IMG/VR virus record: IMGVR_UViG_3300046839_000055
Span: 1 to 64,000 of that record
Direction: 5' to 3' (one strand)
DNA from: a virus
Taxonomy: Duplodnaviria > Caudoviricetes
DNA: 64,000 bases
Every line of letters starts with the position of its first letter. The first letter of the stretch is position 1. The notes below the pieces were generated by a model. It saw only the letters and a program-made list of their open reading frames with translations. It ran no database searches and was not told the origin of the DNA. The translations under genes and the position numbers were made by a program. Shown here piece after piece: positions 11,795-56,106 of this stretch.

Positions 11795-12052
11795 TTACTT
11801 TTCTCCATCCTGCTCCGGTTTCTGATTCATGTCTTCTCCCGGCGTGCCCTCCTCAAGTTCCATAATATCTTCAAGCTGGCAATGTAATCCTTCGCATATT
11901 CTTACAAGAACATCCGTCGTGATATTTCCGCATTTGCCCATTTTTGCTATTGAAGCAGAGCTTAATCCGCATAACTTTCTGAGATCCTGCTTGTTCATGT
12001 CTCTGTCAATTAACAGTTTCCATAGCTTCTTATATGTAATGTGCATTTTCAA
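11795..12052 (-). CDS. Cro/C1-type (HTH_26-like) regulator, possible controller of the RM genes
   Basis: YKKLWKLLIDRDMNKQDL...SIAKMGK...LVRICEGL. Confidence 0.85.
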   Translation of the reverse strand: MKMHITYKKLWKLLIDRDMNKQDLRKLCGLSSASIAKMGKCGNITTDVLVRICEGLHCQLEDIMELEEGTPGEDMNQKPEQDGEK

Positions 12053-12060
12053 CCCTTTAT

Positions 12061-13710
12061 TCAGGCGTTATTAGCCTGCCCTTTTTTATTGAATTTCCAG
12101 CCAAACAATGACTCTGCGTCACGGTCGAGATGCAATACCTGTGTTTGTGTAAGAATCTCCTTTGTTTTAGGAGAAGCATTCTTATCAAATGCAATAAAGA
12201 TCTGTCTGCCTTTTGCCATATCCCGGTAAATTTCCATCAATTGCTCCACCACATCATTGTTCATGTTCGGATAGAAATTGGAGTCATGTATTATGAAAGG
12301 AATCCGGCCTGTTTCAAAGACAGCAAGATCAAAAAGAAGCAATCCTTCATTTCTAGAGCTTTGTCCGTTGTCATTTCCCGTATCTAACTCGTAAGATTTT
12401 GAGCTCTTTATATTGATGTAGGGCGGCACAATCTCTGTGCCAAATAGCGACCGACACAACTCCCGCATCGATTTATTGACTGGAGCAAGAACCTTGCTCA
12501 TTGTCATAACAACCAACGCATCAAGCTCTTCCTGCTTCTGCTCACTTTCCTTCTTTACTTTTTCCTTATTGTCAAATGCATCGTTCGCTTGCTGCAGCAC
12601 CTGCATCTCTGAGTTCAATTTCGAATATCGATCAAGTATGGCCTTGGCGACATTGGGAATCCTTCGGATTTCTATCTGTTCTTTTTCCAGCTGATCGATT
12701 TTTTCGTCTGCAAGAACAATCATTGCATCCACATCATTCTCACTATCCTTCAGCTGCTTACGGAGGATTTTCATCAGACCGCGATGGAAATCATCAATTT
12801 TAGAAAGCCGCTCTACATTGACATCAGGGAAGAAAGCTAGAAGATCAGAATAATCTTTAGGGAAAGATTTCTTTGTCTCTTCATAGCTTCGGTTGATTGC
12901 ATTACGCTGTGCAACCAACCGCGTTTTTTGCCGTCTGAAGTTGGATAGTTCTTCTCTTACAACTCTCAGCTGGTCCGCTTGTTCTGACGAAAGATCCAGT
13001 AGCCCTTCGCTGCTCTTCATGGCCAATTCATCCATTTCAGCTTTCAGCACTTCTATTCTTGCTGCATTTTCTTTGTACTCCGTCTTGCCTTTTGCACTCT
13101 TGATATAGGTGAACTTAACGGCATCCTGATATGTCTCATCACGCTCCTTGGCTTCCTTTGCTGTATTTCTCGGAATCTCTAATTCTTCATATTTGCCGAA
13201 AAGCTGAGACATTTTGAAGATAGCATCCTCGTCAGTTTCTCCTTTGGCTTCCTTAAATGGTTTGCTTTCATCCATCGTATCCCGATGATCTACACGAATA
13301 AATCGACTCATTGCACTGCGAAATGAAAGTCCGTATTCTGTCAGTCCATATTGCAGAGCCAGAAATTTATGGTAATTGTCAATTGTCATATCGCCATTCG
13401 GAAGTGGCTTATAGTCCTGATCGCATTGAGTTACAACTTTTTTATTATCCGTGGATCGCGTAAAATAATATGATTTTCCATCGAATTCCATTTTGAAATC
13501 AATGGAATGCTCACCGACATTATCCCGGACTGCTTTGCACTTTTTATAGTAATCGTCCCCGCCAAATACGAAATCAATTATGAGTAAAAACGTAGACTTT
13601 CCTGCAGAGTTAGTTCCTTCCTCAGTTCCTACGACGGTATTCAGCCCTTCGTGAAAAGTGATAGTCTGTATTCCTTGTCTGAATTTACTGCATCGTATTT
13701 CTTTCAACAT
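12061..13710 (-). CDS. lmuB: ABC-three-component/Lamassu SMC-like ATPase (DUF2326-type)
   Basis: Start at 13710 after AGGAGG; FHEGLNTVVG..NSAGKST Walker A, long coiled coil, C-terminal FIIHDS Walker B. Confidence 0.85.
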   Translation of the reverse strand: MLKEIRCSKFRQGIQTITFHEGLNTVVGTEEGTNSAGKSTFLLIIDFVFGGDDYYKKCKAVRDNVGEHSIDFKMEFDGKSYYFTRSTDNKKVVTQCDQDYKPLPNGDMTIDNYHKFLALQYGLTEYGLSFRSAMSRFIRVDHRDTMDESKPFKEAKGETDEDAIFKMSQLFGKYEELEIPRNTAKEAKERDETYQDAVKFTYIKSAKGKTEYKENAARIEVLKAEMDELAMKSSEGLLDLSSEQADQLRVVREELSNFRRQKTRLVAQRNAINRSYEETKKSFPKDYSDLLAFFPDVNVERLSKIDDFHRGLMKILRKQLKDSENDVDAMIVLADEKIDQLEKEQIEIRRIPNVAKAILDRYSKLNSEMQVLQQANDAFDNKEKVKKESEQKQEELDALVVMTMSKVLAPVNKSMRELCRSLFGTEIVPPYINIKSSKSYELDTGNDNGQSSRNEGLLLFDLAVFETGRIPFIIHDSNFYPNMNNDVVEQLMEIYRDMAKGRQIFIAFDKNASPKTKEILTQTQVLHLDRDAESLFGWKFNKKGQANNA

Positions 13711-13924
13711 AATGCAGCACCTCCTTCTTTTCATCGAGTTCGACACGGCCCAAGATATACAGACAATCCAGTACCTCAACAAAATCAGCAATCGGTATCT
13801 TCTTCTCGACCTTCTTATAAAGTTCTATCGGCGACATATCAATAACTCGCAATTCTTTCAGAACAGTCGGAAATTCTGCCAGTGTGCTCTTTTTATAGGG
13901 TGTAACCCTGCTTGGCATGCGCAT
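13685..13924 (-). CDS. lmuC: ABC-three-component middle component (LmuC-like)
   Basis: 79-aa gene between effector and ATPase; MRMPSRVTPYKKS...LDCLYILGRVEL. Confidence 0.75.
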   Translation of the reverse strand: MRMPSRVTPYKKSTLAEFPTVLKELRVIDMSPIELYKKVEKKIPIADFVEVLDCLYILGRVELDEKKEVLHYVERNTMQ

Positions 13925-13940
13925 ACGTAATCCTATCCTT

Positions 13941-15128
13941 TCATGAAACAGCTTCGAAAATTGCACAGTTTTGAATAAAGAAAGCTACTACGATATGACT
14001 TGCAGTGCTGTACTCGTCCTCAAGGCCATTCTTGGAGAGCATCCATTCCGCAATTTTGTCACAGATCTCCTGCTGATTCATTCCCAGATCCTTGTACTTC
14101 AGATATATCGAATTAACTTCTGACCGGATCACGTCATATTTGGTATTTGAATTGGTCCCGTCGATTGAAAAATTCTGCTCAACATACGAATAATAGTGAT
14201 TCACCCAATCCTCAACGGTTCCCTTCAGATTAAAGTTCTCTGGTGTGAATTTCTCATCCAATGTCAAAGCCTCTCGAATAGGTAGCAATTGCACAGAGGA
14301 TTTCACTTGTGAAACCGCTTTGATGACATCTACAATCTCAGTCTCAATAGTTGACTCTGATGAAATTTCCTGTTCTTTCATCATTCTGGATAGGGATTCC
14401 TTTTTTCGAAACAGGTCCTTATAAGTATCCTCAGTCGGATCCAGTAGATAATTCTCTGCACAATCCGGGCATAACGCTATCTGGTTGTCAGCACTCATTG
14501 ATTTCGCTGGTCTCGGCGCAATTGCATTGAAACTCGTCTCAAGATCTGCAGATAAATCATCCGGATATATTTTTACAACTCTATAACGATTCAGAATTTT
14601 ACCGTGGACTTTCTTCCATAATTTTTTTCCACACTGAGGGCATGTTTGATGCACCTCATGTAAGAAATAGAAGTCATTGCTTTTCACGATATATTCAGGG
14701 AGCGTATTTCGTTTTCCCAGCGCATAAAGTATTGCATCCGTGAAGAACTGTTCAAAATCGCCTGCATCATGTTCCTTTTGCAGCCTATCAACCAAATCTC
14801 CAGGTACATTCTCGTCATTTTTCATTTGCTGAAAAATTGCGAATGATGCCTGCATCTGGTTCAACGGGCTCAAATGATGCTCCAGAATCTCCTTCACTCT
14901 TGTCTTCGCATACGCAATCACGTCCTTATTATTTATTGCCGCCTGGATCGCTTCATGAACCTCATTTCTCCTTTTCACAAGATTCGTCACCATCTTGTCA
15001 TCCACATTTACATTTACCGAGTCGTGTTCCGCCACTGTATTGAGCAACATTTTCCCTGCTTCATTCTGCGATACACCCATGCAGAACTGCATTTCCTTAA
15101 TTAAAAAAGAAATATTGTACTCGCTCAT
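13941..15128 (-). CDS. lmuA: ABC-three-component effector (LmuA-like): N-terminal helical extension, HNH-like zinc domain, conserved C-terminal domain
   Basis: Start 15128 after GGAGG; CPQCG...NQIALCPDC; C-terminal IVVAFFIQNCAIF. Confidence 0.75.
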   Translation of the reverse strand: MSEYNISFLIKEMQFCMGVSQNEAGKMLLNTVAEHDSVNVNVDDKMVTNLVKRRNEVHEAIQAAINNKDVIAYAKTRVKEILEHHLSPLNQMQASFAIFQQMKNDENVPGDLVDRLQKEHDAGDFEQFFTDAILYALGKRNTLPEYIVKSNDFYFLHEVHQTCPQCGKKLWKKVHGKILNRYRVVKIYPDDLSADLETSFNAIAPRPAKSMSADNQIALCPDCAENYLLDPTEDTYKDLFRKKESLSRMMKEQEISSESTIETEIVDVIKAVSQVKSSVQLLPIREALTLDEKFTPENFNLKGTVEDWVNHYYSYVEQNFSIDGTNSNTKYDVIRSEVNSIYLKYKDLGMNQQEICDKIAEWMLSKNGLEDEYSTASHIVVAFFIQNCAIFEAVS

Positions 15129-15158
15129 ACCAGAGAACCACCTCCTCGGCAGAAAAAT

Positions 15159-15250
15159 GATTGCAATTTGAGGGCAAAACGAGAGCAAAGACTTTCAGCA
15201 TCTGCTCCATTAAACTTTTAAGTAAAGAAAGGGATCCCTTTCTTAAAAGT
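15159..15250. promoter_or_regulatory. Divergent control region: three 11-bp-phased GAnnGCAA repeats and a 20-bp perfect palindrome
   Basis: GATTGCAA/GAGGGCAA/GAGAGCAA at 15159, 15170, 15181; AAGAAAGGGATCCCTTTCTT at 15225-15244. Confidence 0.55.
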
Positions 15251-15364
15251 ATAAGTCGAGTGTATCACTTATGAGTGCAATCGTCAATTTCATCTTTACG
15301 ATTGCAAACATTTTGATCAAATTCAAAAATTGATCGTTTAGCTCACGCTTATCCTTTTTCAGTA

Positions 15365-15555
15365 AACACAGGTCACTACTGCAGAGTTTCCGGGACCTGT
15401 GTTGAACGCAACTAAATAAGAAAGCCCAGGCCACCGGAAGGACTGGGCTGCTATCGAAACGGAATCGTTTTTGACAGGCAGCCCATGTCCTTTTTTCTGT
15501 GCTTTGCTGCGCTTAGAAGCCTCCGTTTCGAACCACACGAAACGGAGGTTTCTTT
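15365..15555 (+). promoter_or_regulatory. Structured 5' leader (attenuator-like) of the phage sigma-like gene
   Basis: Several perfect stems, a T6-tailed terminator and an RBS-sequestering hairpin (see findings). Confidence 0.65.
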
Positions 15556-15951
15556 ATGCATATCAGTTACAAGTTTGCAGACGGCACTAAGAAGGATGCC
15601 GCAATGGAAGACGAGTACGGAACGTTCATCGTCGATTCCCGGAAGGAGGAGCATGCAGGCAACGAAAGAGAACGCTACCATGCAGCTTTCTCCATCGATG
15701 ATCCGGACTCTTACGAGAGTCAGAAGTTCAGCGACAGCGGCAGCAACCCGGAAGATATCTATCTTCGCAAATGCGAGAGCGAGAGCCTGTCCCGCGGACT
15801 CATGACTCTGACAGAAACACAGCGCCGTCGCCTCTTAAAGCTGGCATCTGGCAAAACCATCGCAGCCATCGCCCGGGAAGAAGGCGCTGCCTACAACACG
15901 GTAAAGGAGTCAATCAATCAGGCTCGAAAGATCATGAAAAATTTTTGCTGA
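15556..15951 (+). CDS. Sigma-70 region-4 type regulator
   Basis: C-terminal LTETQRRRL...GKTIAAIAREEGAAYNTVKESINQARK helix-turn-helix. Confidence 0.85.
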   Translation: MHISYKFADGTKKDAAMEDEYGTFIVDSRKEEHAGNERERYHAAFSIDDPDSYESQKFSDSGSNPEDIYLRKCESESLSRGLMTLTETQRRRLLKLASGKTIAAIAREEGAAYNTVKESINQARKIMKNFC

Positions 15952-15962
15952 TTTTTCTTACA

Positions 15963-16004
15963 GACCACCCTCAATATTCCCTGTCCTTTTCTGTTTAACA
16001 GTGA
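15963..16004 (+). promoter_or_regulatory. Putative phage-sigma-dependent promoter, copy 1
   Basis: GACCACCCTCAA-N12-TTTTCTGTTTA, repeated with identical spacing at 51989. Confidence 0.7.
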
Positions 16005-16039
16005 AAGGATAGGGATTCCTTTCAGAAAGGAGCTCAAAG

Positions 16040-21957: not shown

Positions 21958-22060
21958 CTATATATATAGATATATTGTCAGTCCGTGGACGTTCCGTGTG
22001 TGGGAAGGACGTAAACGTCCGTCCTTCCACACAGCGAAACGGAACCCTACGGCTGACAAT
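21958..22060. other. Putative replication origin: AT run followed by a long imperfect palindrome
   Basis: TATATATATAGATATA then nested arms ATTGTCAG/CTGACAAT, GTTCCGT/ACGGAAC, GGAAGGACG/CGTCCTTCC just after the primase gene. Confidence 0.55.
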
Positions 22061-22095: not shown

Positions 22096-22500
22096 ATGAA
22101 TTTTTTTATTGAAATGAATCCCCCTACCGCAACTGCACAGGAAAAGCAGGTGCGTATCATCCACGGAAAACCGATTTTTTATGAGCCTGCCAAGTTAAAG
22201 CAGGCAAAGCACATCCTGACAGAGAAGCTCATGCCGCATAGTCCGAAGGAACCGCTCACCGGTCCGCTTGCCCTGCATGTCGTGTGGTTATTTCCGAAAG
22301 GGAAATCACACAGACATGGTGAATGGCGTATCACCCGTCCAGATACCGACAACCTCGAAAAGATGCTGAAGGACTGTATGACCCGCTGCGGCTACTGGAA
22401 CGATGACGCGCAAGTCGTAAAAGAGACCGCCGAGAAGCGCTGGTCCGATGAACCGACCGGCATTGAGATCGAGATCACAGAAGCGGAGGTGCAAGTATGA
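22096..22500 (+). CDS. rusA: RusA-family Holliday junction resolvase
   Basis: RPDTDNLEKMLKD...WNDDAQV. Confidence 0.9.
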   Translation: MNFFIEMNPPTATAQEKQVRIIHGKPIFYEPAKLKQAKHILTEKLMPHSPKEPLTGPLALHVVWLFPKGKSHRHGEWRITRPDTDNLEKMLKDCMTRCGYWNDDAQVVKETAEKRWSDEPTGIEIEITEAEVQV

Positions 22501-22925
22501 GCTCTGTATATCGTAACAACGAAGGATATGTAGACACCACGGCAGGCATGGCGATTGCTCATGCCGCTGTCGCAGAAAAAAAGAAGAAGTACCGTCCCAT
22601 CGTTTACATCTGCTCCAAGTACAGAGGCGATACCGAGAAGAATGCTGCAGATGCCCTGAAGTACTGCCGCTTTGCCGTACGAAGAGGCTGCATCCCGATC
22701 GCACCGCATATCTTTTTCGCTCATTCCGGCATCCTTAATGATGCTGACCCGGAAGAACGGAAGCTCGGCATGTTTATCGGGATCATCCTGCTCGACCGCT
22801 GTGAAGAGGTCTGGATCTTTGGAAACGAGCTCTCCGACGGCATGAAGCGCGAGTATGACCGCGCTGTCAGAAGAAATATCAAAATCCGCACCTTTACCGA
22901 CAGCTGTGTGGAGATCGGAGGATGA
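22497..22925 (+). CDS. DUF4406-like phage protein
   Basis: VYICSKYRGD...PIAPH...CEEVWIFG..SDGMKRE. Confidence 0.75.
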   Translation: MSSVYRNNEGYVDTTAGMAIAHAAVAEKKKKYRPIVYICSKYRGDTEKNAADALKYCRFAVRRGCIPIAPHIFFAHSGILNDADPEERKLGMFIGIILLDRCEEVWIFGNELSDGMKREYDRAVRRNIKIRTFTDSCVEIGG

Positions 22926-22926
22926 A

Positions 22927-23148
22927 ATGGATCCATATGAAAAGCTGGCAAACGCCATCATCCTTCAGGCCGTAAAAGACTGGCGGCACGGAGCAAAACT
23001 TCTGAAACGTCACCCAAACAGCACAGAAGGAAGACGCATCAAATATGACACCGAGAAATTTTTCAAGTCGAAGTGGTTCTCCAGTCTTACAAATATTGAC
23101 GGAAAAATGCTGCTTCGGAAACTGCAAGAGGAGGTAAATGAGTCATGA
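22927..23148 (+). CDS. Phage hypothetical protein
   Basis: MDPYEKLANAIILQAVKDWR...FFKSKWF after GGAGG. Confidence 0.75.
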   Translation: MDPYEKLANAIILQAVKDWRHGAKLLKRHPNSTEGRRIKYDTEKFFKSKWFSSLTNIDGKMLLRKLQEEVNES

Positions 23149-23573
23149 TGACTGTAAAGGAATACCTTCGTCAGGCTTACCGGCTTGACCAGAGAATCAA
23201 CAGTGATATCGAGGAAGTCGGACGGCTTCGGAGCATGGCATCTTCTGTTTCTTCTCCCTCTCTTGGAGAGCGGGTGCAGACCAGTCATAACGGCGATGCT
23301 CCATTCGTTCGCTCCATCGAGAAGATTATTGAACTGGAACACAAGATTGATCAGGAGATCGATCTCTACGTGAATCTGAAAGATCAGATCCGGACCGTCA
23401 TCGCAAAGGTCGATGATCCGAATGAACAGCTCGTCCTCCGCTACCGGTACGTGCATAACTATACCTGGGAACAGATCGGCGATCGTCTCTACGCGGATCG
23501 CACGACGGTATACCGCTGGCACAGCAATGCGCTTAGGCATGTCACGCTCCCGGACGACCCGATCATCATCTGA
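23145..23573 (+). CDS. ArpU/RinA-like late transcriptional activator
   Basis: KEYLRQAY...VLRYRY..YTWEQIG...VYRWH; last gene before packaging module. Confidence 0.8.
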   Translation: MMTVKEYLRQAYRLDQRINSDIEEVGRLRSMASSVSSPSLGERVQTSHNGDAPFVRSIEKIIELEHKIDQEIDLYVNLKDQIRTVIAKVDDPNEQLVLRYRYVHNYTWEQIGDRLYADRTTVYRWHSNALRHVTLPDDPIII

Positions 23574-23592
23574 AACCGGAACTCACCGCAGG

Positions 23593-23645
23593 TTGCAACA
23601 CTTTGCAACAAAATGAGACTCTCGCATATGTGATAGTATAGAATC
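23593..23645 (+). promoter_or_regulatory. Putative late promoter with activator boxes
   Basis: TTGCAACA at 23593 and 23603 (10-bp phase), then TGTGATAGTATAGAAT extended -10-like sequence. Confidence 0.6.
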
Positions 23646-23733
23646 AGCGAAAGCGAGCAAGATGAAACACAGCAAGCCCTGAAGGAGACCGATCCTCCGG
23701 GGCTTTTGTTATGCAGCAAAGGAGGCGGCGTGC

Positions 23734-24105
23734 ATGCCAAGGAAACCAAAGCGCCCCTGCAGATACCAAGGCTGCAAGGAATTCGCTGAGGACGGCGAAC
23801 AGTACTGCCCGAAGCACAAGAAACTGATGGAAGAACACTACGACAACTTCACCCGCGGATACAACGGGCATAAACGTTACGGCAGTCAGTGGAGAAAGAT
23901 CCGGACGCGCTACGTCAAGAAGCACCCGCTCTGTGAGGAGTGCTTAAAGCATGGGCGATTCGTTCCGGTCGAGGAAGTCCACCACATCGTTCCGATCTCC
24001 GAGGGAGGAACCAACGACGAGAGCAATCTCATGAGTCTTTGCCGGAGCTGTCACGAAAAAATCCACGAGAAACGTGGTGACAGGAAACCGGGAGGGGCGG
24101 TCTGA
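23734..24105 (+). CDS. HNH endonuclease (terminase cofactor type)
   Basis: PLCEEC..EVHHIVP..GGTN..NLMSLCRSCH. Confidence 0.92.
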   Translation: MPRKPKRPCRYQGCKEFAEDGEQYCPKHKKLMEEHYDNFTRGYNGHKRYGSQWRKIRTRYVKKHPLCEECLKHGRFVPVEEVHHIVPISEGGTNDESNLMSLCRSCHEKIHEKRGDRKPGGAV

Positions 24106-24200
24106 ATCTCTAAAACCAAAAGGACAGAAGACCGCCGCCCCCTCTCGCGTGCGTTTTTTCCGGTTCAAACAGGGGATTAACCCCGCCGCCTGCACAGAAA
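24091..24200. other. Probable cos/packaging region
   Basis: Lies between HNH and terS; GGGGCGGTCT...AGACCGCCGCCCC inverted arrangement; exact cut site not determinable. Confidence 0.35.
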
Positions 24201-24213
24201 GGAAGTGTAAACC

Positions 24214-24795
24214 GTGGCAAAAGACGGAACGTACCGCGGCGGCAGGCGAATTAAAGCCGGTGGCAAGCCCACCCCTGCTGCGGAAAAAATAGCAAATGGG
24301 AAACCGGTGCAGGTCATGAGAAATGACATTCCTGACCTGGAACCGGATGAACTTGAGGCAGTGGATCTTCCGGAGGGCGCTGTACTCGAAGGCGCGGATA
24401 TGCCAAAGCCGGACGAATACCTCTCCGCCAAACAGAAGAACGGCAAGCCGCTCGGAGCTGACGTGATTTACAAAGAGACCTGGCTCTGGCTCAAACGCCG
24501 CCACTGCGAAAATCTTGTAAATAAGCGGCTCATTGAATCCTACGCGCAGAACTTTGCCCGTTACATTCAATGCGAGGATGCGATTAGTACCTACGGACTT
24601 CTCGGGAAGCATCCGACGACAGGCGGGGTCGTGAGCTCTCCCTTCGTCCAGATGGCATCGCAGTTTCAGAAAGCCGCGAACCTCATCTGGATGGAAATCT
24701 ATGACATTGTGAAACAGAACTGTACCGAGGAGTTTGAGGACGGGAATCCGAATGACACGATGGAGCAGCTTCTTCGTTCAAGGAAAGGACGATAA
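24214..24795 (+). CDS. terS: Terminase small subunit (P27-like)
   Basis: RGGRRIKAGGKP N-terminus; KHPTTG..SPFV. Confidence 0.85.
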   Translation: MAKDGTYRGGRRIKAGGKPTPAAEKIANGKPVQVMRNDIPDLEPDELEAVDLPEGAVLEGADMPKPDEYLSAKQKNGKPLGADVIYKETWLWLKRRHCENLVNKRLIESYAQNFARYIQCEDAISTYGLLGKHPTTGGVVSSPFVQMASQFQKAANLIWMEIYDIVKQNCTEEFEDGNPNDTMEQLLRSRKGR

Positions 24796-26046
24796 ATGGA
24801 TACAAATAAACTTGAACAGGTACCGATTGACAAGCTGGTGCCTTATGCCCGGAATGCACGGACACACAGTAAAGAACAGATCGCGCAGCTTCGCGCTTCA
24901 CTCCGGGAGTTTGGTTTCGTCTCCCCTGCCGTGATCGACAGCAAATACAACATCCTCGTCGGCCACGGACGTGTGCAGGCGGCACGGGAGGAAGGTTACA
25001 AGACCGTCCCCTGCGTCTTTGCCGAGAACCTGAACGATGCGCAGAAGCGTGCCTATATCCTTGCCGACAATCAGCTGGCATTAAATGCCGGATGGGATGA
25101 AGAGATGCTCTCCGTGGAACTGTCTGATCTGCAGGCGGACGATTTTGATCTGTCTCTCCTCGGATTTGACGATAAGGACCTCGAAAAGCTGATGGCAGGC
25201 CCGGACGACAGCGGCGCGGAAGATGATGATTTCGATCTCTCCGCTGCCCTTGAGAAGGCATCCTTCGTCGAAAAAGGTGATCTCTGGACGGTCGGAAAGC
25301 ACCGACTGCTCTGCGGCGATGCTACTTCTCCTGAAGACGTCGAGCATCTGATGGGAGGCAAGACCGCAAATCTGATCCTGACGGATCCGCCTTACGGAGT
25401 TTCCTTCAAAGCATCCGACGGGCTCACAATTGAAAACGACAGCCTGAAGGGCGATGAATTCTATAAGTTCCTGCTTTCTGCATTTACCAACATGGCCGCT
25501 CACCTTGAGAAAGGTGGTGCGGCTTATGTTTTCCATGCAGATACCGAGGGGCTTAACTTCCGAAAAGCCTTCATTGATGCCGGCTTCCATCTGGCAGGAG
25601 TGTGTATCTGGGTAAAAAACTCTCTGGTTCTCGGTCGTTCCGATTACCAGTGGCAGCATGAACCGATCCTCTACGGCTTCCTTCAGAATGGAAAGCATCC
25701 ATGGTATTCCGACCGAAAGCAAACGACCATCTGGAACTTCAATAAGCCGAAGCGTAACAAGGATCACCCGACCAGCAAGCCACTCGATCTTCTCTCCTAC
25801 CCGATCAAGAATTCCAGTCAGGAGAACGCCATCGTGCTCGATACCTTCGGCGGCTCCGGTTCCACGATGATGGCCTGTGAACAGATGAATCGTATCTGCT
25901 ACATGTCTGAGCTTGATCCGAAATATGCCTCTGTGATACTCCGCCGCTATGTCGAGGATACCGGTGATGCGGATGGTGTGTATGTAGAACGTGGCGGCAA
26001 GAAGCTCCCCTATTCCGACCTCGTAAAGGAAGTCGAAACCACATAA
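24796..26046 (+). CDS. ParB-domain + N4/N6 DNA methyltransferase
   Basis: LVPYARNARTH, GHGR, LADN; TDPPY, HPTSKP, DTFGGSGST. Confidence 0.93.
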   Translation: MDTNKLEQVPIDKLVPYARNARTHSKEQIAQLRASLREFGFVSPAVIDSKYNILVGHGRVQAAREEGYKTVPCVFAENLNDAQKRAYILADNQLALNAGWDEEMLSVELSDLQADDFDLSLLGFDDKDLEKLMAGPDDSGAEDDDFDLSAALEKASFVEKGDLWTVGKHRLLCGDATSPEDVEHLMGGKTANLILTDPPYGVSFKASDGLTIENDSLKGDEFYKFLLSAFTNMAAHLEKGGAAYVFHADTEGLNFRKAFIDAGFHLAGVCIWVKNSLVLGRSDYQWQHEPILYGFLQNGKHPWYSDRKQTTIWNFNKPKRNKDHPTSKPLDLLSYPIKNSSQENAIVLDTFGGSGSTMMACEQMNRICYMSELDPKYASVILRRYVEDTGDADGVYVERGGKKLPYSDLVKEVETT

Positions 26047-52705: not shown

Positions 52706-52753
52706 TAATACGGGCCCCCAGAGGGATGTATAGTGACGGAAAGGAGTGATTTT

Positions 52754-54544
52754 ATGGCAAAGATCACAAAGATTGAGCCGACGATACCGAGCTTACCTAC
52801 TCGTAAGAAAGTCGCCGCTTATGCCAGAGTTTCTATGGAGACCGAAAGGCTCCATCATTCCCTGTCCGCACAGATCAGCAGCTACAGTAAACGGATTCAG
52901 GATAATCCTGAATGGGAGTATGTTGGCGTTTACGCGGACGAAGGGATCTCCGGAACAGGCACAGAAAAAAGGCCTGAGTTTCGGCGCATGCTTGCCGACT
53001 GCGAGGATGGAAAAATCGATATCATCCTCACAAAGAGCATCAGCCGGTTTGCCCGGAACACCGTAGATCTTCTGAATACGGTCCGACACTTAAAGGAGCT
53101 CGGCATTGAAGTCCGCTTCGAAAAGGAAAACATCAATTCACTCTCCGGCGACGGCGAGGTGATGCTCACGCTCCTCGCATCTTTTGCGCAGGAAGAAAGC
53201 GTCAGCATCAGCAACAATGTAAAATGGGGGATCCGCAAACGGATGCAGTCCGGCCTTCCTTATGCCAATGGTCACATGAACGTCTACGGCTATCGCTGGG
53301 AAGGCGACGAAATGGTCATCGTACCAGAAGAAGCCGCCGTCGTAAAGAGAATCTTCCAGAACTTTCTGGATGGGAAGTCGCGGCTGGAAACAGAACGGGA
53401 ATTTGCCGCTGAAGGCATTACTACCCGCCAAGGTTGTCGCTGGGAGGATTCCAACATTCGAAAAGTGCTGGAAAACGTCACCTACACCGGAAACATGCTT
53501 TTTCAGAAGGAATTCGTCTCGGATCCCATCAACAAACATCGCAGGAAGAACCGCGGCGAGCTTCCACAATATTTCGTAGAGAATACCCACGAAGCGATCA
53601 TCGATTATGACACATGGAAATACGTGCAGGATGAAATGGAACGACGCAGAGAACTCGGGCCTCTGGCGAATAAGAGCCTGAACACCTGCTGCTTCACCGG
53701 CAAGATTAAATGCCCATACTGCGGATACAGCTATATGCATGAGCACAGAACGAAGAACGGACATTATCAGGAATTCTGGGTCTGTGGCAGCTATAAGAAA
53801 AAGAAGAAAGGCAATGGATGCCCTGTCGGCGGCACAATCAATCACAAGAATCTGAAGAAAGTCTGCGCGGAAGTGCTGGGTCTTCCCGAATTTGATGAAA
53901 ACATCTTTCTCGAAAAGGTTGATCACATCGATGTTCCCAAGCGGTACGTCCTTACGTTTTATCTGAAAGACGGAACAACAATAACAAAACCGTGTCCGAA
54001 TACCAGCCATCAGGATTGCTGGACCGCAGAGTATCGGGCAGAAACTTCACGGAAGCGCCGGAACAGCCCCAGAGCCAAAGGTGTGACCGCCCTCTCCGGG
54101 CGAATCAAATGCTCTGCCTGCGGCTGCAACTTTCGCCGCTGCACGCAGCCTGCTTCCAATCCGGCCAAACCGAAGATGCACTACTGGCGTTGTGCCGAAC
54201 ACAGCAATGGATGCATTACCGTCGGATTGCGCGAGGATGTTTTGAAACCGCTCATCGCTGAAATGATGGAGATCCCGGAATACGACGAAGAGCAGTTCAA
54301 AAATCAGATGGAAGCCATCTATGTAATGGACAAGGATCTTCTTGAATTTCATTTCAAGGATGGACGCATCAAGACTACACACTACGTTCCTCCGGAGAAA
54401 ACCTTCACTCCACGCAGTGAGGAAGCCAGAGAACACATGCGGCAGCTTATGAAAGATAGATGGACGCCAGATCTTAAAGCTGAGATGGGCGAGAAGATGA
54501 AAAAGATAAGGAGCGAGAAATATTGGAGCAGCAAAAGAAAGTAA
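52754..54544 (+). CDS. Large serine recombinase 1
   Basis: AAYARVS, YADEGISGT, KSISRFARN; recombinase domain; two zinc-ribbon modules. Confidence 0.95.
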   Translation: MAKITKIEPTIPSLPTRKKVAAYARVSMETERLHHSLSAQISSYSKRIQDNPEWEYVGVYADEGISGTGTEKRPEFRRMLADCEDGKIDIILTKSISRFARNTVDLLNTVRHLKELGIEVRFEKENINSLSGDGEVMLTLLASFAQEESVSISNNVKWGIRKRMQSGLPYANGHMNVYGYRWEGDEMVIVPEEAAVVKRIFQNFLDGKSRLETEREFAAEGITTRQGCRWEDSNIRKVLENVTYTGNMLFQKEFVSDPINKHRRKNRGELPQYFVENTHEAIIDYDTWKYVQDEMERRRELGPLANKSLNTCCFTGKIKCPYCGYSYMHEHRTKNGHYQEFWVCGSYKKKKKGNGCPVGGTINHKNLKKVCAEVLGLPEFDENIFLEKVDHIDVPKRYVLTFYLKDGTTITKPCPNTSHQDCWTAEYRAETSRKRRNSPRAKGVTALSGRIKCSACGCNFRRCTQPASNPAKPKMHYWRCAEHSNGCITVGLREDVLKPLIAEMMEIPEYDEEQFKNQMEAIYVMDKDLLEFHFKDGRIKTTHYVPPEKTFTPRSEEAREHMRQLMKDRWTPDLKAEMGEKMKKIRSEKYWSSKRK

Positions 54545-56106
54545 GAACCATTCCGGCCACGCTGACCCGGTTCACTTCTTCCCCGATCGAGGAGAAAAAG
54601 AAGCGCCGGGTCGCCGGATATGCCCGCGTCTCGACTGATCATGACGATCAGTTCACAAGCTACGAGGCGCAGATCGACTACTACACGAATTATATCAAGA
54701 TCCGTGATGACTGGGAATTCGTCAGGGTTTACACCGACGAAGGTATCACCGGCACCAGCACGAAGCACCGCGAAGGGTTCAAACAGATGGTTGCGGATGC
54801 GCTGGCCGGAAAGATCGACCTGATCGTTACGAAATCCGTCAGCCGTTTTGCACGAAACACGGTTGATTCCCTCACCACCATCCGGAAGCTGAAGGATAAA
54901 GGAGTCGAGTGCTATTTTGAGAAGGAAAATATCTGGACCTTCGACGGCAAGGGCGAGCTGCTTATCACGATCATGTCCTCGCTGGCACAGGAGGAATCCC
55001 GCAGCATTTCCGAGAACTGTACATGGGGACAGAGAAAGCGATTCGCTGATGGCAAGGTCACGGTTCCCTTTAAGCGCTTCCTCGGGTACGACCGCGGTCC
55101 GAATGGCGAGCTGATCGTAAATAAGGAACAGGCAGAAACGGTAAAACACATCTACGACATGTTCCTGCAGGGACGGACGTATCACGGAATTGCCAAGACA
55201 CTCACCGAGGAAGGTATCAAATCACCGGGCGGCAAGGATCAGTGGAGCCAGAGCTCCGTCAAGAGCATTCTCAGCAACGAGAAATACAAAGGCGACGCCC
55301 TGCTCCAGAAATCCTACACCGTCGATTACCTGACGAAGAAAACCAAGGTGAATGAAGGCGAGATCCCTCAGTACTACGTCGAAGGAAATCACGAGGCGAT
55401 CATTCCTCCTGAAAAATTCGACATGGTACAGCGGGAAATGGCGAAACGCGGTAAGGGCAAAAAATACCACAGCGGTGTGCATCCATTCTCCAGCAAGATC
55501 AAGTGCGGCCAGTGCGGAAGCTGGTACGGCTCGAAGGTCTGGCATTCGACAGACAAGTACCGCCGGACGATCTGGCAATGCAACCACAAGTACGATGGCG
55601 GCGAGCGCTGCTCCACTCCTCACCTGACTGACGAGCAGATTCAGGATGCCTTCCTGTCGGCGGCAAACAAGCTGCTGGCCACAAAAGACGCAGTCATCGC
55701 CAACGGCAAGGCAATGCTGACGCTCCTCTTTGATACCTCAGAACAGGAAGCCGAACGTGACAAGCTGCTGGAAGAAGCGCAGGTTGTTTCCGATGCTGTT
55801 CAGAAGAACATCTACGAGAACGCCCATGTTGCCCTCGACCAGAAGGCTTACCAGAAAAAGTACGACGGCCTGACCGGACGGTACGAAACGCTCAAGACCC
55901 GCATCGAGGAGCTAAACGACCAGATCAGCCAGCTGCAATCACAGAAAGGCAGCGTCGAGGATTTCCTTGCCGCCTTTGAGAAACTGCCGGAAACCCTGAC
56001 CGCGTTCTCCCTTGACGCATTTAACGCCCTGACGGATTACCTCACGGTCAATGGCGAGGGCGACATCAGCGTAACCTTCCGCAACGGCCAGACCATCAAG
56101 GCATAA
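54523..56106 (+). CDS. Large serine recombinase 2
   Basis: AGYARVST, YTDEGITGT, KSVSRFARN; zinc ribbon and coiled coil. Confidence 0.95.
   Translation: MEQQKKVRTIPATLTRFTSSPIEEKKKRRVAGYARVSTDHDDQFTSYEAQIDYYTNYIKIRDDWEFVRVYTDEGITGTSTKHREGFKQMVADALAGKIDLIVTKSVSRFARNTVDSLTTIRKLKDKGVECYFEKENIWTFDGKGELLITIMSSLAQEESRSISENCTWGQRKRFADGKVTVPFKRFLGYDRGPNGELIVNKEQAETVKHIYDMFLQGRTYHGIAKTLTEEGIKSPGGKDQWSQSSVKSILSNEKYKGDALLQKSYTVDYLTKKTKVNEGEIPQYYVEGNHEAIIPPEKFDMVQREMAKRGKGKKYHSGVHPFSSKIKCGQCGSWYGSKVWHSTDKYRRTIWQCNHKYDGGERCSTPHLTDEQIQDAFLSAANKLLATKDAVIANGKAMLTLLFDTSEQEAERDKLLEEAQVVSDAVQKNIYENAHVALDQKAYQKKYDGLTGRYETLKTRIEELNDQISQLQSQKGSVEDFLAAFEKLPETLTAFSLDAFNALTDYLTVNGEGDISVTFRNGQTIKA

What the first reader, a model, noticed from the sequence alone, without database searches (positions are those of the whole stretch)
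15365..15558. RNA-switch-like leader in place of a CI repressor: exclusive terminator/antiterminator plus RBS-sequestering stems
Seen: (i) AACACAGGTC(15365-74)/GACCTGTGTT(15394-403) perfect stem. (ii) GGACTGGGCTGC(15440-51) pairs with GCAGCCCATGTCC(15478-90) followed by T6, a terminator, but CTGGGCT(15443-49) can instead pair with AGCCCAG(15423-29). (iii) GAAGCCTCCGTTTCG(15516-30) pairs with CGAAACGGAGGTTTC(15538-52), burying the GGAGG RBS of the sigma gene. (iv) TCGAAACGGA(15454-63), in the terminator loop, is the exact 10-nt complement of TCCGTTTCGA(15522-31) and would free the RBS. No CI/S24-type repressor is visible beside the early genes. Inference: a two-state RNA controlling both transcription and translation of the master activator, conceptually like P4 CI RNA or P1 c4 immunity.
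Basis: partly seen in the sequence, partly recalled or inferred. Interest (0 to 1): 0.8.

Follow-up and report, generated by a model that had tools for sequence, protein, structure and literature searches.

The report
Divergent DUF2800 phage leader RNA switch
The flagged hairpins are real and form a diverged copy of a catalogued but functionally unexplained phage leader RNA (Rfam "DUF2800 RNA") plus an uncatalogued hairpin that hides the ribosome-binding site of the prophage's first early regulator gene, so it is most likely an off-by-default RNA switch and not a replacement for a repressor protein.

Summary
The leader folds far better than shuffles (z = -6.7).

It is not an orphan. Proteins 46-49% identical to the 131-aa gene downstream carry bona fide Rfam RF02960 (DUF2800 RNA, 122-128 bits) at the same position. 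A sequence profile of 55 canonical leaders hits window 15408-15558 at E = 1.3e-10. The window copy itself scores only 18.8 bits (cut-off 60.2), so it is a diverged variant.

Across 58 leaders, covariation or conserved complementarity supports:
- the P1-to-junction pseudoknot;
- P2;
- the SD-sequestering hairpin;

A hairpin plus U-run is common in the family and is especially strong here (-27.9 kcal/mol, U6).

The "in place of CI / P4-CI-like immunity" reading is not supported:
- Relatives have Cro/C1-type HTH genes next to the RNA.
- The window has a homologue at 11795-12052.
- The internal repeat pairs with the anti-SD, which would activate rather than repress.

The trigger is unknown. This scan has already reached the same family on other DNA (e1-5468733, e1-5352546, e1-2410841, e1-5468727).

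The parts
15365..15403 (+). P1 hairpin (10 bp, arms 15365-74 / 15394-403). Its loop carries a 6-nt self-complementary CUGCAG (15379-84) and the 5' strand of the pseudoknot (15388-93).
   Evidence: Sequence. It lies at the P1 position of RF02960. Window-type relatives show compensatory and G.U changes in the stem. The palindromic apex is a family trait.
15409..15419 (+). Conserved single-stranded linker between P1 and P2 (family consensus ACAAnUnAAUA).
   Evidence: cmscan alignment. Columns 76-87 of A2 are nearly invariant.
15421..15430 (+). P2 5' strand. It pairs with 15496-15505 (9 bp, one mismatch) and so encloses the terminator and the U-run. Its core 15423-29 can instead pair with 15443-49.
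   Evidence: MFE fold. Duplex -8.7 kcal/mol. Across the family, own-partner duplexes average -10.4 against -8.5 +/- 0.23 for permuted partners.
15434..15439 (+). 3' strand of the pseudoknot (CCGGAA). It pairs with 15388-15393 in the P1 loop.
   Evidence: 6 bp perfect, duplex -10.7 kcal/mol. The homologous helix in 58 leaders is 96.5% paired, with 5 of 6 pairs showing double changes and 0/500 shuffles as good. MAFFT places the window's copy one column off.
15440..15496 (+). Extended P3 stem (15440-51 / 15478-90) with T6 (15491-96): an intrinsic-terminator-like hairpin. Its 26-nt loop holds the P4 mini-hairpin and the SD-mimic repeat.
   Evidence: -27.9 kcal/mol. In 46 of 58 family leaders a hairpin ends within 1 nt of a U-run, and a U-run of 4 or more occurs in 53/58.
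15454..15463 (+). Internal repeat (anti-anti-SD, SD mimic; the 5' arm of P4). It is an exact complement of 15522-15531 and a direct repeat of 15537-15546.
   Evidence: Sequence. The family helix is 96.9% paired against 31-59% in slid controls, with two pairs compensated in 9 sequences. Haplotype table.
15516..15552 (+). SD-sequestering hairpin: anti-SD arm 15516-30, SD arm 15538-52, GGAGG at 15544-48. It lies outside the Rfam model.
   Evidence: -25.9 kcal/mol. Recovered by RNAalifold with compensatory changes in 4 pairs. It is the full-length MFE in 57/58 leaders.
15556..15951 (+). 131-aa gene with a sigma-70 region-4-like C-terminal HTH. It is the first gene of the early (replication) operon.
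   Evidence: Pfam Sigma70_r4_2 at 19.6 bits, below the cut-off. phrog_11138. Followed by Gp157, AAA_24, helicase and primase genes.
11795..12052 (-). 85-aa Cro/C1-type HTH protein: the candidate protein repressor, separated from the leader by the Lamassu operon.
   Evidence: Pfam HTH_26 3e-16. PHROG 3 'transcriptional repressor'. 44% identical to the HTH gene next to the RNA in L046.

Best explanation
Window 15363-15555 (+) is the 5' leader of a prophage early operon. It is a diverged member of the DUF2800 RNA family (Rfam RF02960), fused to an expression platform that the Rfam model does not cover.

The sensor part has these elements:
- a P1 hairpin whose loop forms a 6-bp pseudoknot with the junction before P3;
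- a conserved linker;
- P2, which closes around everything up to and including the U-run;
- an extended P3 stem whose loop holds the small P4 hairpin.

The platform is a 15-bp hairpin that buries the Shine-Dalgarno sequence of a 131-aa sigma-region-4-like regulator.

Two locks keep the gene off by default:
- The P3 stem plus U6 can terminate transcription inside the leader.
- Any read-through message has its SD sequestered.

The 5' arm of P4 repeats the SD arm. It can capture the anti-SD strand and free the SD, so the RNA can toggle between a translation-off and a translation-on fold. In this lineage the terminator stem is so stable that the off fold dominates.

Shown: homology, structure conservation and both competing pairings. 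Inferred: that termination and the toggle operate in vivo, and that a still unknown signal (ligand, protein, or RNA-RNA contact through the self-complementary P1 loop) selects the fold.
For: Family membership by context and sequence:
- Twelve loci encoding homologues of the 131-aa protein carry RF02960 at 122-128 bits, 40-200 nt upstream of the ATG.
- A pattern scan gave 80 more loci, nearly all followed about 75 nt later by a ~130-aa or ~170-aa sigma_r4-like gene.
- cmscan aligns the window end to end on the model, 1-158/158, at 18.8 bits.
- An nhmmer profile built without window-type sequences hits 15408-15558 at E = 1.3e-10.

Structure:
- Pseudoknot: 96.5% paired, 5/6 pairs compensatory, 0/500 shuffles as good. 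It is present in the window with a different sequence.
- P1, P3, P4 and the RBS hairpin are recovered by RNAalifold, with 20 of 32 pairs compensated.
- P2 complementarity is partner-specific.
- P3 keeps G.U pairs in 51 and 55 of 58 sequences. These would be A.C on the other strand, so the structure is RNA from the + strand.

Switch:
- Internal repeat with anti-SD: 96.9% paired against 31-59% when slid.
- Variant A (CGAAACGGAG-type) and variant B (CGGAAUGGAG-type) always match their own anti-SD and SD, 58/58.
- The MFE of the transcript up to the anti-SD uses the alternative helix in 43/58 leaders. The full-length MFE uses the SD hairpin in 57/58.
- Six non-RF02960 leaders of homologous genes also show a terminator-like hairpin plus an SD hairpin.
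- A natural variant (L119) has lost exactly the segment between the two repeats.
Against: - The window copy fails Rfam's gathering score (18.8 against 60.2 bits). It lacks the family's conserved P1 interior and apical CUGAUCA loop.
- In the window the alternative (on) fold is about 20 kcal/mol worse than the off fold in a nested model. It is not the MFE even before the SD arm is made. Switching here needs a factor or a loop-to-strand pseudoknot that the software cannot score.
- The compensatory changes in the anti-SD/internal-repeat helix come from one or a few lineages (9 sequences), so independent events are few.
- The U-run is weak (only 3 T) in 5 of 58 leaders.
- No promoter near consensus was found upstream on the + strand.
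- No ligand or protein partner is known.
Confidence: 0.75

Rival explanations
1. Trans-acting immunity RNA. The short RNA terminated at 15496 accumulates in lysogens and acts on nascent leaders of the same or a superinfecting phage. It might do so through kissing of the self-complementary P1 loop, holding the early operon off, with the loop sequence setting immunity specificity.
For: - A strong terminator would yield a discrete RNA of about 130-150 nt.
- The P1 apex carries a 6-nt palindrome that differs between lineages: TGATCA, TGGCCA, CTGCAG in the window, GTGCAC in the second element of the same record. A palindrome of 6 nt or more occurs in 39/58 leaders against 15% of control windows.
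- No repressor gene is directly adjacent in the window.
Against: - Relatives keep XRE/Cro-C1 HTH genes beside the RNA, and the window has a homologue.
- The only long complementarity to the message targets the anti-SD, which would activate rather than repress.
- No match to c4 or other antisense families.
- P2, which needs read-through past the U-run, is conserved, so full-length leaders are under selection.
- Palindromes in a 19-nt loop arise by chance about 20% of the time.
Confidence: 0.08
2. Static dampener. The hairpins only lower and stabilise expression of the first early gene (mRNA stability, weak constitutive translation). There is no signal-dependent switching, and the internal repeat persists by descent.
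For: - The off fold dominates thermodynamically in the window.
- No ligand or partner has been identified.
- Non-homologous leaders of the same gene family also have a terminator plus an SD hairpin.
Against: - An elaborate conserved pseudoknotted domain with invariant junction nucleotides is unnecessary for damping.
- The internal repeat tracks the anti-SD through two compensated positions.
- In most canonical leaders its match to the anti-SD is contiguous, whereas the SD arm carries a bulge or wobble.
Confidence: 0.1
3. Processive-antitermination or RNA-polymerase-modifying leader (like HK022 put or Bacillus EAR). The folded RNA acts on the transcribing polymerase so that the long early operon is read through downstream terminators.
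For: It sits at the very start of a long early operon. In several canonical leaders a -10-like TAAACT lies 6-7 nt before P1, so the RNA would begin at the transcript's 5' end. The multi-helix fold is conserved.
Against: - The conserved coupling is to the ribosome-binding site of the first gene.
- There is no similarity to put or EAR families in Rfam.
- The RNA contains its own terminator-like element.
Confidence: 0.04
4. DNA-level elements: the inverted repeats are operator sites for dimeric DNA-binding proteins, not RNA helices.
For: P1 is a perfect 10-bp inverted repeat. Operator-like palindromes occur upstream at 15227-15242 and in relatives.
Against: - Conserved G.U pairs in P3 and G.U intermediates in P1 of window-type relatives are strand-specific.
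- Long-range pseudoknot covariation and three-way SD logic make no sense for DNA sites.
Confidence: 0.02

Closest known systems
DUF2800 RNA motif, Rfam RF02960 (type Cis-reg in Rfam; attribution to the survey of Weinberg et al. 2017, PMC5737381, is from my memory, because that paper's main text does not mention the motif)
   Same: - Same genomic position, upstream of homologous sigma_r4-like genes in gut-Clostridia phages.
- Same order of elements: P1, linker, P2, P3, P4, U-run.
- Conserved linker and P4 5' arm.
- End-to-end cmscan alignment and profile E = 1.3e-10.
   Different: - It scores 18.8 bits against the 60.2 cut-off.
- The P1 interior and the CUGAUCA apex are replaced by a plain 10-bp stem with a CUGCAG-bearing loop.
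- P3 is extended to a 12-bp, -27.9 kcal/mol terminator stem.
- P4 is reduced to 5 bp.
- The Rfam model stops about 40 nt before the ATG, so it omits the SD hairpin that completes the switch.
Translational riboswitch and attenuator expression platforms (SD, anti-SD and anti-anti-SD; terminator and antiterminator)
   Same: Three-strand logic with mutually exclusive helices. There is a structured domain upstream and a hairpin plus U-run inside the leader.
   Different: No ligand or binding pocket is known. The anti-anti-SD sits inside the terminator loop, so the on state would be a pseudoknot. The off fold is strongly favoured here.
P4 CI RNA and P1/P7 c4 antisense RNA (phage immunity RNAs cut from a leader)
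   Same: A leader-encoded structured RNA in a temperate phage, with repeats complementary to sequences further down the same transcript.
   Different: - Here the repeat is complementary to the anti-SD, so pairing would activate.
- No processing signal or family match was found.
- Protein HTH repressor candidates coexist with the RNA.
- Trans action is untested.
Kissing-loop dimerisation signals such as the retroviral DIS hairpin, and homo-oligomeric phage-associated RNAs (ROOL, GOLLD; PMC12286853, which I saw only as an abstract)
   Same: The apical loop of P1 carries a 6-nt self-complementary sequence. Its identity changes between lineages while the palindromy is kept.
   Different: Dimerisation is untested. 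The loop in the window is long (19 nt), where a palindrome is not rare by chance.

Membership tests
Rfam RF02960 DUF2800 RNA | Covariance-model score at or above the curated gathering score (60.2 bits) | tested here: not met
   18.8 bits, E = 0.46 on 501 nt, full model 1-158 aligned. Canonical relatives score 122-151 bits.
Rfam RF02960 DUF2800 RNA | Sequence homology to family members | tested here: met
   An nhmmer profile of 55 canonical leaders, with no window-type rows, hits 15408-15558 at E = 1.3e-10 in the 158-kb record. P1 (15365-15403) is not covered by the sequence match.
Rfam RF02960 DUF2800 RNA | Same genomic context as members | tested here: met
   Homologues of the downstream protein (46-49% identity) carry RF02960 at the same offset. 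80 pattern-found loci are mostly followed by sigma_r4-like genes.
Rfam RF02960 DUF2800 RNA | Helices P1, P2, P3, P4 and the P1-to-junction pseudoknot | tested here: met
   All are present in the window with partly different sequences. Family covariation is shown.
Rfam RF02960 DUF2800 RNA | Conserved P1 interior (CAUC/GAUG inner stem, CUGAUCA apex, GCUCAA bulge) and GGACUGCGG 3' strand of P3 | tested here: not met
   These blocks are replaced in the window (alignment A2). Only the properties survive: a palindromic apex and the pseudoknot strand.
Riboswitch (ligand-sensing cis-regulatory RNA) | Specific binding of a small molecule that shifts the fold | not testable with these tools
   No ligand is known for RF02960. 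Only the platform logic was tested.
Intrinsic-terminator attenuator | Stable GC-rich hairpin directly followed by a U-run, with a mutually exclusive upstream pairing | tested here: met
   -27.9 kcal/mol stem with U6 directly after it. The 7-bp alternative 15423-29 / 15443-49 exists but is near the chance level. Function in vivo was not tested.
Phage immunity antisense RNAs (P4 CI, P1/P7 c4) | Complementarity to target sites whose pairing blocks downstream expression, and a family or structure match | tested here: not met
   No Rfam match of that kind. The complementarity found is to the anti-SD strand.
Phage immunity antisense RNAs (P4 CI, P1/P7 c4) | Stable processed small RNA acting in trans in lysogens | not testable with these tools

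The most novel reading that the evidence does not exclude
The leader is a self-recognising immunity RNA. Terminated copies made by the prophage dimerise with nascent leaders through the lineage-specific palindromic P1 loop (CUGCAG here, GUGCAC in the second element of the same record, UGAUCA or UGGCCA elsewhere). This locks nascent leaders in the terminating, SD-hidden fold. The loop sequence would then define immunity groups, and the RNA would share or take over the role of a CI repressor in this large group of gut phages.
Probability: 0.08. Interest if true: 0.85.

Novelty: new variant of a known kind. Interest (0 to 1): 0.45.

Why it matters
RF02960 is an orphan RNA: it is catalogued but has no assigned function. 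This window, together with its relatives, shows three things:
- The RNA is really the leader of a small sigma-region-4-like regulator that opens the early operon of a widespread group of gut-Clostridia phages.
- An SD-sequestering hairpin outside the Rfam model completes a three-strand switch.
- The architecture survives heavy sequence turnover. The pseudoknot, P2, the palindromic apex and the SD mimic are all kept with different letters.

That gives concrete, testable mutants for an RNA that may gate the lytic programme. It also suggests the Rfam model should be extended and its threshold revisited.

The specific claim that the RNA replaces a repressor does not hold.

Tried and rejected
- Literature: no paper in the library combines 'DUF2800' with 'RNA motif'. 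Papers holding 'DUF2800' concern the protein domain. The main text of Weinberg 2017 does not mention the motif, and no supplements are held.
- Cultured models: blastn of the window leader against 50,697 phage records found nothing. The canonical leader hits only uncultivated gut phages.
- Genome census: RF02960 was found in 2 of 150 sampled genomes of the class, which is too rare for a host-level analysis.
- Leader peptide: the ATG at 15485 opens a 106-aa frame overlapping the regulator gene. It has no SD, lies inside the terminator 3' arm, and the ATG is absent from canonical leaders. Rejected.
- Other copies of the 9-mer repeat at 22035, 26831 and 39156 show no leader-like context. Rejected as targets.
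- Promoter: the sigma-70 scan found no + strand site between 15200 and 15360. Hand-found candidates such as TTGCAA-17-AAAAAT are weak and not conserved in window-type relatives.
- Minus-strand ORFs in the early region (22392-25261) were tested as hidden repressors and gave no Pfam hit.
- Weak cmscan hits to microRNA and snoRNA families are chance matches to plain hairpins.

Full report
**1. Observation.**
- P1: 15365-74 pairs with 15394-403.
- Terminator-like stem: a 12-bp stem, 15440-51 with 15478-90, followed by T6.
- Alternative pairing: the 7-nt complement 15423-29 / 15443-49.
- SD hairpin: a perfect 15-bp hairpin, 15516-30 with 15538-52, burying GGAGG (15544-48) 7 nt before the ATG at 15556.
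- Repeat: the 10-nt exact complement 15454-63 / 15522-31.

The 236-nt leader folds at -89.9 kcal/mol. Shuffles average -60.3 +/- 4.5, giving z = -6.66. The 9-mer core of the repeat is six-fold over-represented in the window, and three of its copies lie in the leader.

**2. Genomic setting.**
The window is the first 64 kb of a 158-kb IMG/VR provirus record.
- Upstream, on the minus strand, lies a Lamassu/ABC-3C operon. It has a CTD11 effector (13941-15131), an MC7 middle component (13685-13966) and a DUF2326 ATPase (12061-13791).
- Beyond that come a Cro/C1-type HTH gene (11795-12052) and further defence genes.
- Downstream, on the plus strand, the order is: a 131-aa protein with a weak sigma-70 region-4 match, a 66-aa protein, Gp157, AAA_24, a helicase, a primase, RusA, a DUF1492/sigma_r4 protein, terminase, and structural genes.
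- Two large serine recombinases at 52733-56106 mark the right end.

The leader therefore opens the early (replication) operon.

**3. Identity.**
Rfam cmscan gives one relevant hit, RF02960 (DUF2800 RNA). It spans 15363-15506 and aligns to the full model (1-158/158), but it scores only 18.8 bits against a gathering score of 60.2. On its own that would be noise. Three independent results make it real:
- Loci encoding proteins 46-49% identical to the 131-aa product carry RF02960 at 122-128 bits at the same offset from the ATG.
- A pattern scan of IMG/VR for two invariant blocks of the motif returned 80 loci. About 75 nt downstream of the match there is nearly always a ~130-aa (window-type) or ~170-aa Cys-rich sigma_r4-like gene.
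- A sequence-only profile of 55 canonical leaders, built without any window-type sequence, finds 15408-15558 at E = 1.3e-10 in the whole 158-kb record.

The same record holds a second element at about 116.8-117.9 kb. It has a 166-aa Cys-rich sigma-like gene preceded by two more weak RF02960 matches of 29.9 and 27.1 bits, and by its own SD hairpin.

**4. Structure and covariation.**
The analysis used 58 aligned leaders (alignment A2).
- RNAalifold recovers P1, P3, P4 and the SD hairpin. 20 of 32 pairs show compensated changes.
- P3 keeps G.U pairs in 51 and 55 of 58 sequences. This fixes the RNA strand as +.
- A helix not nested in the Rfam structure joins the 3' bulge of P1 to the junction before P3. 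It is 96.5% paired, 5 of 6 pairs have double changes, 0 of 500 shuffles match it, and slid controls reach 21-42%.
- The window keeps this pseudoknot with different letters: 15388-93 with 15434-39, at -10.7 kcal/mol.
- P2 encloses the U-run. Its two strands fit their own partners better than permuted partners, -10.4 against -8.5 +/- 0.23 kcal/mol. In the window it is 15421-30 with 15496-505.
- Five distinct window-type leaders show compensatory and G.U changes in P1.

**5. The switch.**
The anti-SD strand can pair with the SD arm or with the 5' arm of P4.
- The second helix is 96.9% paired over 10 columns. Slid controls reach 31-59%. Two positions are compensated in nine sequences.
- In all 58 leaders the three strands carry matching variants.
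- In two sequences (L048, L066) the 3' arm of P4 is compensated as well.
- In most canonical leaders the internal repeat is a contiguous 10-11-nt complement of the anti-SD, whereas the SD arm carries a bulge or wobble.
- Folding the transcript only up to the anti-SD gives the alternative helix as the MFE in 43 of 58 leaders, together with a P2-5'/P3-5' hairpin in the two printed examples. Folding the full leader gives the SD hairpin in 57 of 58.

Point (ii) has an analogue in canonical members.

**6. The terminator.**
A U-run of 4 or more occurs in 53 of 58 leaders, and a hairpin ends within 1 nt of it in 46 of 58. The median energy for canonical leaders is -19.6 kcal/mol, and the stems are often irregular. 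The window's stem is regular and strong at -27.9 kcal/mol with U6.

Because of this strength, the window's off fold (-88.0) beats the enforced alternative (-68.2). It also remains the MFE before the SD arm exists. This lineage is therefore biased further towards off. Turning it on would need a factor, or a loop-to-strand pseudoknot that nested folding cannot score.

**7. What the RNA is not.**
- Relatives have XRE/Cro-C1 HTH genes divergently placed 0.3-1 kb upstream of the same RNA (L039, L085, L046).
- The window's HTH_26 protein is 44% identical to the one in L046. It appears displaced by the Lamassu operon.
- Lamassu operons of two different subtypes also sit next to the RNA in L043 and L063.

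The RNA therefore coexists with candidate protein repressors rather than replacing them. No c4-like or other antisense family matches. The long complementarity is to the anti-SD, which would activate. The downstream protein matches only region 4 of sigma factors, below curated cut-offs. Calling it a master activator is an inference.

**8.
The P1 apex carries a self-complementary 6-mer in 39 of 58 leaders, against 15% of control windows. The 6-mer differs between lineages: TGATCA, TGGCCA, CTGCAG in the window (15379-84), and GTGCAC in the second element. This fits a kissing-dimer contact and keeps a trans or immunity reading alive at low probability. In the window's 19-nt loop, however, a palindrome is expected by chance about one time in five.

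**9. Comparison and novelty.**
The closest known entity is RF02960 itself, which is catalogued as Cis-reg with no known function.

The window copy differs from the model in three ways:
- a replaced P1 interior;
- an extended terminator stem;
- a reduced P4.

It also includes the SD hairpin that the model omits. I class it as a new variant of a known kind.

Earlier follow-ups in this scan reached the same family and the same switch on other DNA. What this window adds is that the architecture survives below Rfam's threshold, and that the 'no repressor' premise fails.

**10. Limits.**
- No transcript data could be obtained.
- No convincing promoter was found.
- The number of independent compensatory events in the switch helix is small.
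- No trigger is known.

Confidence that this is a cis-acting DUF2800-type leader with an off-by-default double lock and a conserved release pairing is 0.75.

Noticed in passing
L119:1170-1500 (ENA contig encoding an 82%-identical regulator): A natural variant has lost exactly the segment between the internal repeat and the SD-arm repeat. That segment comprises the P4 3' arm, the terminator 3' arm, the U-run, the P2 3' strand and the anti-SD. The SD is left unsequestered. This could be a constitutive escape mutant made by recombination between the two 9-10-nt direct repeats, or an assembly artefact.
   Followed up: partly
window 12061-15131 (-); L043:245-3516; L063:4910-7890: Lamassu/ABC-3C three-gene operons of different subtypes sit divergently right next to the leader RNA in several unrelated members of this phage group. 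The window and L063 carry CTD11+MC7, and L043 carries CTD6+MC2. This looks like a preferred slot for this defence system between the HTH gene and the early promoter.
   Followed up: partly
window 16003-16032 (+): A miniature of the same three-strand logic lies before the next gene (66 aa, ATG 16040). GAAAGGA (16003-09) and the SD GAAAGGAG (16025-32) are both complementary to UCCUUUC (16017-23).
   Followed up: no
window 15225-15244: A perfect 20-bp palindrome centred on GATC lies between the Lamassu start and the leader. It is related in sequence to the hairpin at 16003-16023. It could be an operator or a bidirectional hairpin. It is partly conserved in window-type relatives.
   Followed up: no
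G000 116815-117910 (outside the window; L001:1501-2596): A second mobile element in the same record carries two DUF2800-like RNAs in tandem. The first is a truncated form (P1 + linker + P2 only, 29.9 bits) before a 62-aa ORF. The second is a full form (27.1 bits) with a -32.5 kcal/mol terminator and an SD hairpin, before a 166-aa Cys-rich sigma-like gene.
   Followed up: partly
upstream of P1 in L032, L043, L051, L063, L075, L102, L110, L111, L001; window-type L010: Operator-like motifs of the type TTGCGAACGCGAA / GTGAACGCGAAA recur 20-70 nt upstream of the RNA in many relatives. Window-type leaders have a related TTCGCGAAAGTGAATAT block. These are possibly binding sites of a shared repressor or of the sigma-like protein.
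   Followed up: no
L007, L013, L017, L021, L022, L023 (230 nt upstream of the homologous gene): Homologues of the regulator that lack RF02960 still have a strong hairpin + U-run followed by an SD-sequestering hairpin. L013 and L017 keep the linker-like and CGAAAC blocks. This suggests leaders are swapped or heavily remodelled while the double lock is kept.
   Followed up: partly
window 23145-23573 (+): A second sigma_r4-type gene (DUF1492 + Sigma70_r4) lies just before the small terminase. It is the usual position of a late-gene activator, so the leader-controlled protein is probably not the only regulator.
   Followed up: no
window 21990-22045 (+): A strong hairpin follows the primase gene and is itself followed by another copy of the 9-mer CGAAACGGA. 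No link to the leader was established.
   Followed up: no
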